Shown: one piece after another, positions 1,623 through 2,836 of the stretch | Numbering within the stretch: position 1 is the stretch's first letter | How the letters are laid out: each line of letters starts with the position of its first letter | Origin: Promethearchaeota archaeon | Lineage (GTDB): Archaea > Asgardarchaeota > Lokiarchaeia > Sigyniarchaeales > SOKP01 | Assembly: GCA_016839555.1 (NCBI GenBank) | Contig: JAEOUA010000008.1 | Coordinates: forward strand, 128,001 to 192,000 | Length of the DNA: 64,000 bases | Direction: 5' to 3' | Translations under genes and position numbers: made by a program | Notes under the pieces: model-generated | What the model was told of the DNA's origin: nothing | Database searches by the model: none | What the model saw: only the letters and a program-made list of their open reading frames with translations

Positions 1623-2836
1623 GTGATTAAGATTAACGATTCAGACAAATTTACTACTAAATATTATATTCGAGCTTCATTTGTTATAAAGGGGGTCGTA
1701 GAAAAGAGCGATATTGTGGGTGCTATATTCGGACAAAGCTGAAAAGATCTCCTTTTCTCGTCTAAACAGAAGGTCTTCTTTTAGATCTTGACTTACGAGA
1801 ACTTCAAAAATCTGGAAGAATAGGAAGAATTGAAGTCAATAATGAGACAAAAGAAGGAAAATCGAAAGGCACCATAATAATTCCAAGCTCTTTAACCCGA
1901 AAAGAAACTGCTTTACTAGCGGCAACGATAGAAACGGTATCGAGAGTAGGTCCTTGCGAAGCAGAAATCACCTTGCAAGAAATAAAGGATGTAAGAGAAA
2001 AAAAAAGAAAGGAAATTATTGAAAGGGCAGCAGAATTATTAAAAGAATGGGACCAGAAATCATTGGATGCCAGTGAGATTGAGGAAAAGATTGATACAGA
2101 TATTAGATTGGGAGAAATCATAACTTGGGGACCTGAGAACTTACCAGCAGGTCCCGATATTGAGGAAGAGGAGGAATTGATTATAGTAGAAGGACGTGCA
2201 GATGTATTAAATCTCTTACGAATTGGGATTAAAAATACAATAGCAGTTCAAGGAACCAGCATTCCTAAATCTATTATTGAACTCGCAAAAAATAAAAGGG
2301 TAACTGTTTTTCTCGATGGAGATCGTGGTGGAGATTTAATCCTGAAGGAATTGAGTCAATTAATAGATATAGATCATATCGCAAGAGCACCAGAAGGGTA
2401 TGAAGTCGAAGAACTTACTAGAAAACAATTAATTAAATATCTTCAGAAAAAAAGGCCAGCCTCATCTTATAAAATAGAAGAAGAAGTAGAGAAAGAAGAT
2501 GAAAATAAATATTCTTCCAAAGAAAAAGTATTGATTAGCTTTTTAGACAAATTGAAAGTAAAAAACAAAGAAATTATCATTGAAAAAATTAAAAATATTG
2601 AGAGCGGAACTGCGGTGGGCTATGATAAAAAATTACATCCACTATTTACTATTCCAGTAAGTGAATTATATAATTCAATTAATAAACATAGCAATACGAA
2701 ATATTTAATTTTAGATGGAATATTAACAGAGAGGCTTTTAAATCAATTACGTACCATGGAAATTAAATTTATAGCATGCAAGAATAAAGAAGCAGACTTA
2801 AAAGTACCTAATAATATTTCTGTTTATTATTTTTAA
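1623..2836 (+). CDS. dnaG: Archaeal DnaG (TOPRIM primase-like, exosome-associated), split gene: join(1623..1736,1766..2836), 394 aa after removing a 29-nt intron
   Basis: Exon 1 (GTG at 1623) reads MIKINDSDKFTTKYYIRASFVIKGVVEKSDIVGAIFGQ. Exon 2 resumes in another frame at 1766 as TEGLLLDLDLRELQKSGRIGRIEV and continues into the 1973..2836 ORF, which has TOPRIM motifs IIVEGRADV and FLDGDRGG. The joined sequence restores the conserved VVEKxDxVGAIFGQTEGLL motif. Confidence 0.93.
1737..1765 (+). other. Putative 29-nt bulge-helix-bulge (BHB-like) mRNA intron in dnaG
   Basis: Insert agctgaaaagatctccttttctcgtctaa. Central 4-bp helix GGAC(1731-34)/GUCU(1760-63), each strand followed by AAA (1735-37, 1764-66). 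Cutting after the 2nd nt of each AAA removes exactly 1737-1765 and restores the frame. Internal hairpin GAAAAG/CUUUUC. Confidence 0.85.

What the first reader, a model, noticed from the sequence alone, without database searches (positions are those of the whole stretch)
1623..2836. Candidate tRNA-type (bulge-helix-bulge) intron inside the dnaG mRNA of an Asgard archaeon
Seen in sequence: the conserved DnaG motif GAIFGQ-TEGLL is split by a 29-nt insert (1737-1765) that shifts the frame and puts AGC-TGA right after the Gln codon. Unspliced mRNA would give only a 39-aa peptide. The junctions fold together: exon GGAC (1731-34) pairs with intron GUCU (1760-63) as a 4-bp helix, and each strand is followed by AAA. 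The intron interior forms a GAAAAG/CUUUUC hairpin. The exon-exon outer stem is imperfect (UUC/GAA offset by 2 nt), so this is a relaxed BHB/BHL-type motif. Established: the archaeal splicing endonuclease EndA cuts after the 2nd nt of each 3-nt bulge and RtcB ligates. Applying that rule removes exactly the 29 nt that protein homology independently requires, giving a 394-aa DnaG. The best-known archaeal mRNA intron is in crenarchaeal cbf5, and I know of none in dnaG. Inference: protein-catalysed, non-spliceosomal mRNA splicing operates in this Asgard lineage and may gate expression of the exosome-associated DnaG. This parallels the RtcB-ligated, frame-shifting 26-nt XBP1 intron of animals. Gene callers would simply report an N-truncated DnaG, so such introns could be widespread and overlooked.
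Basis: partly seen in the sequence, partly recalled or inferred. Interest (0 to 1): 0.96.

Follow-up and report, generated by a model that had tools for sequence, protein, structure and literature searches.

The report
tRNA-type mini-intron splitting Asgard dnaG
The only dnaG gene of this Loki-type (Promethearchaeota) Asgard archaeon is interrupted by a 29-base insert shaped like an archaeal tRNA intron; relatives carry matching inserts at the same spot, so the message almost certainly has to be cut and rejoined by the tRNA-splicing enzymes, which the papers I could search report for only one archaeal protein gene (cbf5).

Summary
Observation confirmed. Window 1737-1765 (29 nt) splits dnaG between ...GAIFGQ and TEGLL...; the DnaG profile runs 1-26 in exon 1 and 27-281 in exon 2. 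Removing the insert gives 394 aa, the commonest length among listed intron-less homologues.

It is not an artefact or a pseudogene. dnaG is single-copy here. 51 of 107 related loci (36 distinct sequences) carry a 29-43 nt insert at the same site. Exon 1 is under the same purifying selection with or without the insert (dN/dS 0.049 vs 0.052).

The 4-bp central helix (exon GGNC with the intron's 3' end) pairs in all 36 sequences. The Gly wobble base covaries with its partner, and RNAalifold finds this helix unaided. The 3' side is relaxed: five unpaired bases before a weak outer helix.

The genome encodes a crenarchaeal-type EndA alpha subunit, a second EndA paralogue and RtcB. The AMP phosphorylase and porB genes carry 31-nt introns of the same build.

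No RNA data were available, so splicing is inferred. This scan has noted dnaG introns in at least 31 other genomes, and one note reports spliced RNA for the same-site 32-nt homologue; I could not verify it.

Verdict: a new member of the cbf5-type pre-mRNA BHB introns. A regulatory role is untested.

The parts
1623..1736 (+). dnaG exon 1 (38 codons, probable GTG start, ends ...GAIFGQ)
   Evidence: NF003108 profile 1-26. dN/dS is 0.049 in intron-bearing relatives. With exon 2 it gives 394 aa, the commonest length among listed intron-less homologues.
1737..1765 (+). 29-nt BHB-type intron; in-frame TGA at 1740-1742
   Evidence: Same-site inserts of 29-43 nt occur in 51 of 107 related loci. There is no other copy in the genome.
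1766..2836 (+). dnaG exon 2 (356 codons plus stop; Toprim domain)
   Evidence: NF003108 profile 27-281, 387 bits. No in-frame ATG/GTG/TTG occurs before codon 70 of the exon (TTG 1973).
1731..1734 (+). Central helix H, 5' strand (exon, GGAC: the Gly codon plus the C of CAA)
   Evidence: Pairs with 1760-1763. It is 100% paired in 36 distinct sequences. The wobble position shows CG 21, AU 6, UG 5, GC 2 and GU 2. RNAalifold predicts exactly this helix.
1735..1737 (+). 5' bulge AAA; inferred cut between 1736 and 1737
   Evidence: Read from the sequence. The bulge is AA/AG plus N in all relatives. The cut position follows from the established EndA rule and was not tested.
1738..1759 (+). Intron interior: inner helix h' (G1738-C1759) and hairpin 1741-1746/1752-1757 with loop AUCUC
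   Evidence: The interior folds at -4.2 kcal/mol. In relatives h' is GAU/AUC, or GAC/GUC in L025, and is 92% paired.
1760..1763 (+). Central helix H, 3' strand (intron, GUCU)
1764..1766 (+). 3' bulge AAA; inferred cut between 1765 and 1766; two more bases (1767-1768) stay unpaired
   Evidence: Read from the sequence. The 3' side is relaxed: AAACA is unpaired before the outer helix.
1725..1730 (+). Weak outer helix h, 5' strand (AUAUUC), pairing with 1769-1774 (GAAGGU) and offset 2 nt from the canonical register
   Evidence: It is 87% paired in relatives, but all positions are constrained by coding. There is one compensatory change, G-C in L008.

Best explanation
Window 1737-1765 is an archaeal bulge-helix-bulge (tRNA-type) intron inside the dnaG coding sequence.

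In the pre-mRNA the exon bases GGAC (1731-1734) pair with the intron's GUCU (1760-1763). The two AAA stretches that follow these strands are left unpaired, and the intron interior closes into a hairpin.

The host's splicing endonuclease is an alpha/beta-type EndA that carries the crenarchaeal-type specificity loop. I infer that it cuts after the second base of each bulge, at 1736/1737 and 1765/1766. RtcB would then join the 2',3'-cyclic phosphate and 5'-OH ends.

This removes 29 nt together with the in-frame TGA and yields a 394-aa DnaG.

Shown here: the insert, its exact position, its conservation and covariation, selection on both exons, and the presence of the enzymes. Inferred: the cleavage and ligation themselves, and the exact cut sites.

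The intron was present in the ancestor of this family and was lost cleanly several times.
For: 1. Exact break. The DnaG profile covers positions 1-26 in exon 1 and 27-281 in exon 2. The spliced length of 394 aa is the commonest length among listed intron-less homologues.

2. Single dnaG copy in a 92%-complete genome.

3. Same-site inserts in 51 of 107 related Promethearchaeota loci, 36 of them distinct, with lengths 29, 30, 31, 32, 34, 35, 37, 38, 39, 40 and 43 nt. All five same-genus genomes with a hit carry one.

4. Central helix paired in 144 of 144 cells. The 4-fold-degenerate Gly wobble base covaries with its intron partner: A-U, G-C, C-G, U.G and G.U. Controls with the partner slid by 1-3 columns give 23-53% pairing against 91%. 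RNAalifold returns exactly this helix.

5. The inner helix and hairpin also change in a compensatory way: GAU/AUC becomes GAC/GUC, and GAAAAG/CUUUUC becomes CGAAC/GUUCG around the same AUCUC loop.

6. Exon 1 dN/dS is 0.049 with the intron and 0.052 without it. The first 68 codons of exon 2 give 0.043 and 0.028.

7. Every insert carries an in-frame stop within three codons, and the lengths cover all three residues mod 3. No read-through or fixed frameshift can therefore explain them.

8. Host enzymes. One EndA paralogue aligns without gaps to the A. pernix catalytic alpha subunit (3p1z_B, E 5e-40), and the Y/H/K triad and the loop lysine can be read in that alignment. There is a second, divergent paralogue, and RtcB is present. 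Published work assigns Asgard an (alpha-beta)2 EndA with the L1 loop that permits relaxed motifs (PMC5829648).

9. The same genome has 17 intron-bearing tRNAs among 28 detected, with introns mostly 15-43 nt.

10. Two further coding genes are split by 31-nt inserts of the same build. AMP phosphorylase matches TIGR03327 at 1-165 and 167-500. porB matches NF008818 at 115-138 and 140-297.

11. Same-site inserts with a matching helix also occur in two other families of the phylum: f6 with GGCC/GGUU, and f10 with GGUC/GACC.
Against: No RNA-level evidence was available.

The strict hBHBh' motif is not met. After the 3' bulge two further bases are unpaired, and the outer helix is only 3 bp plus a few weak pairs made of codons that cannot vary freely.

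On the window's own sequence the BHB fold (-4.1 to -5.9 kcal/mol) is less stable than a competing local fold (-8.2). The region's MFE is no better than that of shuffled sequence.

In the window's own intron the second pair of the inner helix is a C-U mismatch.

The clean losses of the intron could arise by slippage between the flanking AAA repeats, so they do not by themselves show that a spliced RNA exists.
Confidence: 0.88

Rival explanations
1. Translational bypassing or hopping, as in phage T4 gene 60 or the mitochondrial byp elements. The ribosome would take off at the Gln codon, skip the 29 nt and resume at ACA, so that no RNA splicing is needed.
For: A stop codon lies close behind the take-off site and a hairpin sits in the gap. 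Both exons are clearly translated as one protein.
Against: Bypassing needs matching take-off and landing codons. Here the take-off codon is CAA or CAG, while the codon before ACN is UAA, UAG or UUA.

The stop is the second or third codon after the site, not adjacent to it.

The covariation is between the exon GGNC and the 3' end of the gap, with 3-nt bulges on both sides. That is the geometry of an EndA substrate, and no bypass model requires it.

The same build occurs in other genes of this genome with unrelated flanking codons.
Confidence: 0.03
2. The gene is broken or made in two pieces. The insert would be a neutral or degenerative insertion, or a tiny mobile element with a 3-nt target duplication. 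The cell would then use an N-truncated DnaG, or exon 1 as a separate peptide.
For: Gene callers report N-truncated proteins. AAA direct repeats flank the insert.
Against: There is only one dnaG copy.

Exon 1 and the first 68 codons of exon 2 are under strong purifying selection in intron-bearing lineages, equal to that in intron-less ones.

In the window, exon 2 has no in-frame start codon before codon 70, so the highly conserved TEGLL...GRIGRI region could not be translated.

The insert has persisted at one site across a whole family and in three other families, with structure-preserving changes.

The genome holds no second copy of the insert.
Confidence: 0.03
3. The insert is removed from the RNA, but by something other than EndA plus RtcB. 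Candidates would be another endonuclease that recognises the hairpin, or a different ligase.
For: The 3' side departs from the strict BHB motif. No enzyme assay exists for this lineage.
Against: The conserved and covarying elements are exactly those that define an EndA substrate: the 4-bp helix, the 3-nt bulges and the inner helix.

The host EndA alpha subunit keeps the loop that published work links to relaxed substrates (PMC5829648).

The genome's many tRNA introns show that the pathway is in heavy use.
Confidence: 0.05
4. Assembly or sequencing artefact in this MAG.
For: The only read-level cover I could lay came from the probable source sample.
Against: 36 distinct same-site inserts come from independently assembled genomes of many studies. 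A Logan short-read contig reproduces 1400-1834 without any difference.
Confidence: 0.005

Closest known systems
cbf5 pre-mRNA BHB intron of Crenarchaeota (Desulfurococcales and Sulfolobales; Watanabe 2002, Yoshinari 2006, Yokobori 2009 = PMC2738675)
   Same: Both are short protein-spliced introns inside a conserved coding sequence. Both occur in hosts with hetero-oligomeric EndA. Both were present in the ancestor of a clade and were lost in some lineages (for cbf5; here). Both cause gene callers to mis-predict the gene.
   Different: The gene differs (dnaG, not cbf5), and so does the phylum (Promethearchaeota/Asgard, not Crenarchaeota). The cbf5 intron has been shown to be spliced experimentally, whereas this one is inferred. 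Here the 3' side is relaxed. The host genome also carries further coding-gene introns of the same build.
Archaeal tRNA and rRNA BHB introns, including relaxed HBh' forms at non-canonical positions
   Same: The motif is the same: a 4-bp helix, 3-nt bulges and an inner helix. The size range matches, since the host's tRNA introns are mostly 15-43 nt. The presumed enzymes, EndA and RtcB, are also the same.
   Different: [quoted passage not shown] The helix is kept through synonymous changes only.
HAC1/XBP1 unconventional mRNA splicing (IRE1 cleavage, with RtcB ligation in animals)
   Same: In both, a small frame-shifting intron is removed from an mRNA by a protein endonuclease, and the exons are joined by an RtcB-type ligase without a spliceosome.
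   Different: The endonuclease (IRE1) and the recognition motif (paired stem-loops) differ. XBP1 splicing is a regulated stress switch, and nothing here shows regulation. This is an analogy only.

Membership tests
Archaeal BHB intron (EndA substrate) | 4-bp central helix between the two cleavage sites | tested here: met
   GGAC 1731-1734 pairs with GUCU 1760-1763. The helix is 100% paired in 36 distinct sequences with compensatory changes, and RNAalifold predicts it.
Archaeal BHB intron (EndA substrate) | Two 3-nt bulges on opposite strands, each directly 3' of its strand of the central helix | tested here: inconclusive
   The 5' bulge (AAA 1735-1737) is bounded by H and h' and is canonical. 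The 3' bulge AAA is followed by two more unpaired bases before a weak outer helix. The motif is therefore the relaxed HBh' form and not the strict hBHBh' form.
Archaeal BHB intron (EndA substrate) | Inner helix h' closing the intron | tested here: met
   h' is GAU/AUC in most relatives and GAC/GUC in L025, 92% paired. In the window it is G1738-C1759 plus a 6-bp hairpin, with one C-U mismatch.
Archaeal BHB intron (EndA substrate) | Host encodes a splicing endonuclease able to cut relaxed motifs, plus an RtcB ligase | tested here: met
   There are two EndA paralogues. One aligns to the A. pernix alpha subunit with the Y/H/K triad and the loop lysine readable in the alignment. RtcB scores 564 bits. 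The link between the loop and broad specificity comes from the literature (PMC5829648) and was not assayed.
Archaeal BHB intron (EndA substrate) | Excision at the bulges observed in RNA (spliced exons; linear or circular intron) | not testable with these tools
   No RNA run holds the locus. No spliced form was found in protein or JGI contig collections.
[quoted passage not shown] | Removal restores one continuous, conserved reading frame | tested here: met
   Profile positions 26 and 27 abut across the insert. The product is 394 aa, like intron-less homologues.
[quoted passage not shown] | Both exons remain under purifying selection in intron-bearing lineages | tested here: met
   dN/dS is 0.049 for exon 1 and 0.043 for the start of exon 2.
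Translational bypass element (gene 60 / byp type) | Matching take-off and landing codons | tested here: not met
   The take-off codon is CAA or CAG, and the codon before the resume site is UAA, UAG or UUA.

The most novel reading that the evidence does not exclude
The dnaG intron may be one visible member of a large and old population of EndA-spliced mini-introns in protein-coding genes of Promethearchaeota, with perhaps dozens per genome, often near the 5' end of core genes.

On this reading, the closest prokaryotic relatives of eukaryotes routinely depend on protein-catalysed mRNA splicing. Splicing efficiency could then set the level of proteins such as the exosome-associated DnaG.

I verified three such introns in this genome (dnaG, AMP phosphorylase, porB). 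The scan's unchecked notes list many more. My own structure-based census could not count them.
Probability: 0.4. Interest if true: 0.9.

Novelty: new member of a known kind. Interest (0 to 1): 0.68.

Why it matters
Archaeal protein genes are assumed to be uninterrupted, and in the papers I could search only cbf5 of Crenarchaeota is a documented exception.

A conserved, structure-covarying intron in dnaG, a single-copy gene found in nearly every genome searched here, matters for three reasons.

- Protein-catalysed mRNA splicing would be in regular use in the Asgard lineage closest to eukaryotes.
- Standard gene callers truncate or mis-name such genes. One truncated orthologue is labelled ribonuclease M5.
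- The intron offers a tractable test case (one gene, 29 nt, known enzymes) for how tRNA-type introns enter, persist in and leave coding sequences.

With the other split genes in this genome, it also raises the question of how many Asgard 'pseudogenes' and short ORFs are really spliced genes.

Tried and rejected
1. RNA evidence. The look-up of sequencing runs listed no RNA holder. Read laying on four DNA runs showed only that a contig of the probable source sample reproduces the insert; the other runs did not cover 1655-1756.

2. Spliced forms in the 5.8-billion protein collection. I searched with the window's exon 2 and with the exon 2 of the L006 and L022 lineages. Every close hit was an N-truncated call, and none had a contiguous junction.

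3. Exact spliced-junction patterns of the L022 lineage and of the window, searched in JGI metagenome contigs: 0 matches each.

4. Structure-based genome census of coding-gene introns. The filters were a 4-bp helix, a flush hairpin, an ORF-joining test and a codon-usage score. The number of candidates with a paired central helix never exceeded the chance expectation, for example 128 observed against 117 expected and 79 against 70. The scan did recover dnaG and AMP phosphorylase but missed porB. It is too noisy and too insensitive to count introns, and I draw no number from it.

5. Hairpins with an AUCUC loop, which the dnaG and top6B inserts share, are not enriched in the genome (0.93 times expectation). 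This gives no sign of a sequence family.

6. top6B: exon 1 hit no family, so profile contiguity could not be shown.

7. A competing hairpin (1760-1786) appears in the window's MFE and would bury the 3' site. Its pairing would be broken by mismatches in the long-type introns, so I do not read it as a switch.

8. Clean intron loss as proof of a spliced RNA: rejected, because slippage between the flanking AAA repeats would give the same deletion.

Full report
**The observation**

The frame from GTG 1623 reads 38 codons ending ...GAIFGQ (CAA 1734-1736) and then runs into AGC TGA. From 1766 another frame reads TEGLLLDLDLR... for 356 codons to TAA 2834-2836.

NCBIfam's DnaG model NF003108 matches exon 1 residues 13-38 to profile positions 1-26. 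It matches exon 2 residues 1-252 to positions 27-281, at 387 bits. The two halves abut exactly.

Exon 2 carries the Toprim domain. The joined product is 394 aa, which is the commonest length among the intron-less homologues listed.

The flanking A runs allow four cut registers that give the same product. Homology therefore fixes the length of the insert, and its position only to within a few bases.

On this one sequence the fold is unremarkable. The 71-nt region has an MFE z-score of 0.18. The proposed BHB fold scores -4.1 to -5.9 kcal/mol against -8.2 for a competing local fold.

**Not an artefact, not a pseudogene**

The genome (12 contigs, 92% complete) has a single dnaG.

A search of 40 relatives and of the species-level genome collection gave 107 usable dnaG loci, all from Promethearchaeota/Lokiarchaeia-type MAGs.

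- 51 loci (36 distinct sequences) carry an insert at precisely the same place, between ...FGQ and TEGL....
- The insert lengths are 29, 30, 31, 32, 34, 35, 37, 38, 39, 40 and 43 nt.
- 56 loci have none.
- All five same-genus genomes with a hit carry an insert.

Each insert has an in-frame stop within three codons, and the lengths cover all residues mod 3.

Nei-Gojobori estimates give dN/dS of 0.049 for the last 28 codons of exon 1 in intron-bearing genes, against 0.052 in intron-less ones. For the first 68 codons of exon 2 the values are 0.043 and 0.028.

In the window, exon 2 has no in-frame start codon before its codon 70. Both exons are therefore translated, and translated as one protein.

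**The structure**

I aligned the 36 distinct sequences (A1) and counted the proposed pairs.

- The central helix, exon GGNC with four bases near the intron's 3' end, is paired in every sequence.
- Its third pair involves the 4-fold-degenerate wobble base of the Gly codon. It occurs as C-G (21), A-U (6), U.G (5), G-C (2) and G.U (2), and is never unpaired.
- Sliding the 3' partners by 1-3 columns drops pairing from 91% to 23-53%.
- RNAalifold, given only the alignment, returns exactly this 4-bp helix and nothing else.

Directly after each strand come AA (or AG, UA) plus one base. This is the arrangement in which EndA is known to cut after the second bulge base.

The inner helix is GAU/AUC in most sequences and GAC/GUC in L025. 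The interior hairpin also changes in a compensatory way: GAAAAG/CUUUUC becomes CGAAC/GUUCG around the same AUCUC loop.

The outer helix is weak. UUY/GAR is offset by two bases, which leaves AAACN unpaired at the 3' site, and its columns are codons that can hardly vary. L008 provides one compensatory G-C.

The motif is therefore the relaxed HBh' form, not the strict hBHBh' form.

**The enzymes**

The genome encodes two EndA-family proteins and one RtcB.

The C3 protein aligns without gaps to the catalytic alpha subunit of Aeropyrum pernix EndA (3p1z_B, E 5e-40). By my reading of that alignment it keeps the Tyr/His/Lys triad and the lysine of the crenarchaeal-specific loop. That this lysine (Lys44) matters for non-canonical substrates is my recollection of Hirata et al. 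2011.

The C4 protein is divergent, and by my reading of its sequence it lacks the histidine, as a structural beta subunit would.

This agrees with published work, which finds that Asgard archaea have (alpha-beta)2 EndA with the L1 loop that goes with broad substrate range (PMC5829648). A 2026 preprint similarly finds two EndA paralogues in most Asgard genomes.

ARAGORN finds introns, mostly 15-43 nt long, in 17 of the 28 tRNAs it detects here.

**History**

On a DnaG tree (92 rows, quick IQ-TREE) the earliest-branching lineages of the family carry the intron: L022/L023 with 32 nt, and L016/L020 with 37 nt.

All family introns share sequence at their ends (AGAUAA... and ...AUCGGCUAA, or variants of these). 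Intron-less genes are nested among intron-bearing ones, and at least 8 changes of state are needed.

The simplest reading is one gain before the family radiated, followed by several exact losses. These losses could come from spliced-RNA-mediated recombination or simply from slippage between the flanking AAA repeats. They do not prove splicing.

Outside the family, same-site inserts occur in three other families.

- L025 (family f3): 29 nt, helix GGGC/GCCU.
- Family f6: 32 nt, helix GGCC/GGUU.
- Family f10: 31 nt with GGUC/GACC, and 34 nt with GGCC/GGCA (one mismatch).

The f6 and f10 interiors look unrelated to the f1 type (L025 shares the AUCUC loop with the window). The representatives of 22 other families of the phylum have none. 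Whether this reflects great age or repeated gain at a favoured GGNCAA/A site is open.

**Context in this genome**

The scan's earlier notes list many candidate coding-gene introns in this genome. I tested some of them myself.

- AMP phosphorylase is split by 31 nt (C12:205678-205708), with a textbook helix UAGU/GCUA, bulges ACA and AAA, and a 9-bp inner stem. TIGR03327 covers 1-165 in exon 1 and 167-500 in exon 2.
- porB is split by 31 nt (C6:79408-79438). NF008818 covers 115-138 and 140-297.
- The RNase HII insert (28 nt) reads correctly by eye. Its exon 1 is too short for a profile test.
- top6B could not be confirmed.

My own structure-plus-ORF census of the genome showed no excess over chance and cannot be used to count introns. 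The dnaG insert has no second copy in the genome.

**Rivals**

- Translational bypassing fails on its defining feature. The take-off codon (CAA/CAG) never matches the codon before the resume site (UAA/UAG/UUA), and bypassing gives no reason for the exon-intron helix.
- Frameshifting and read-through are excluded by the stops and by the spread of lengths.
- A broken gene is excluded by selection and by the single copy.
- An artefact is excluded by 36 independent sequences.
- A different nuclease or ligase cannot be excluded without an assay. However, the conserved elements are exactly those of an EndA substrate.

**What is missing**

There is no RNA evidence. No RNA run holds the locus. No spliced form appears in the protein collection or in JGI contigs.

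A note of this scan (e1-5453221) reports an environmental RNA data set with exactly 32 bases removed from dnaG of another genome. By sequence look-up, that is the L022/L023-type intron, at the same site and in the same family. I could not re-run that check.

**Known or new**

In the searchable literature the only archaeal coding sequence described as spliced this way is cbf5 of Crenarchaeota, including its lineage-specific loss (PMC2738675). Searches for dnaG, Asgard and BHB introns in coding genes found nothing else.

This scan has noted dnaG introns in at least 31 other genomes.

I class this as a new member of a known kind. The mechanism is the familiar EndA/RtcB pathway, and the gene and phylum are new. 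The suggestion that splicing regulates DnaG is untested.

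Noticed in passing
L115:779-809 (G000 C12:205678-205708): AMP phosphorylase is split inside the DKHSTGGVPGNK motif by a 31-nt insert with a textbook BHB: helix UAGU/GCUA, bulges ACA and AAA, and a 9-bp inner stem. TIGR03327 covers 1-165 before the insert and 167-500 after it.
   Followed up: yes
L114:609-639 (G000 C6:79408-79438): porB is split by a 31-nt insert with helix UCCA/UGGA and a 7-bp exon-exon outer helix. NF008818 covers 115-138 before and 140-297 after.

The exon-2 frame then runs without a stop into a second PorB-like N-terminal region (profile 5-120). 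Profile positions 1-114 of the first copy are not in the exon-1 frame. There may therefore be more breaks or a tandem copy.
   Followed up: partly
L116:255-282 (G000 C12, about 69954-69981): RNase HII reads MRNFLICGLDEAGR, then a 28-nt insert (helix AGGG/CCCU, bulges AGA and AAA), then GPVLGPM. This restores the DEAGRGP motif. It was read by eye only, because exon 1 is too short for a profile test.
   Followed up: partly
L117, minus strand, about 956-990 (G000 C5): top6B candidate 32-nt insert whose hairpin has the same AUCUC loop as the dnaG intron. Exon 1 hit no family, so contiguity was not shown. AUCUC-loop hairpins are not enriched genome-wide.
   Followed up: partly
whole genome G000: ARAGORN finds only 28 tRNA genes, 17 of them with introns. 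Many tRNAs are probably missed because of multiple or non-canonical introns.
   Followed up: no
L120, L121 (family f6); L129, L130 (family f10): Same-site dnaG inserts in two other families of the phylum, with interiors that look unrelated but a matching central helix: GGCC/GGUU in f6, and GGUC/GACC and GGCC/GGCA in f10. In f10 the residue after Gln is Leu, not Thr.
   Followed up: partly
window 1760-1786: In the window's MFE fold the 3' strand of the central helix and the 3' bulge pair with UUUAGAU of exon 2. This would hide the 3' splice site. The pairing would be broken by mismatches in the long-type introns of relatives.
   Followed up: partly
protein P0008 (JGI record, 86% identical to the window's exon 2): An N-truncated dnaG call from an intron-bearing relative is named '5S rRNA maturation endonuclease (ribonuclease M5)' by its source. 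This is an annotation error caused by the intron.
   Followed up: no
long-type introns, e.g. L015:2551-2626:-: The interior hairpin ends in UCGGCUUA, and the intron itself ends in UCGGCUAA. The 3' strand of the central helix is thus duplicated inside the intron, so the exon GGCC could pair with either copy. The meaning is unknown; it could be an alternative 3' site or a trace of the intron's origin.
   Followed up: no
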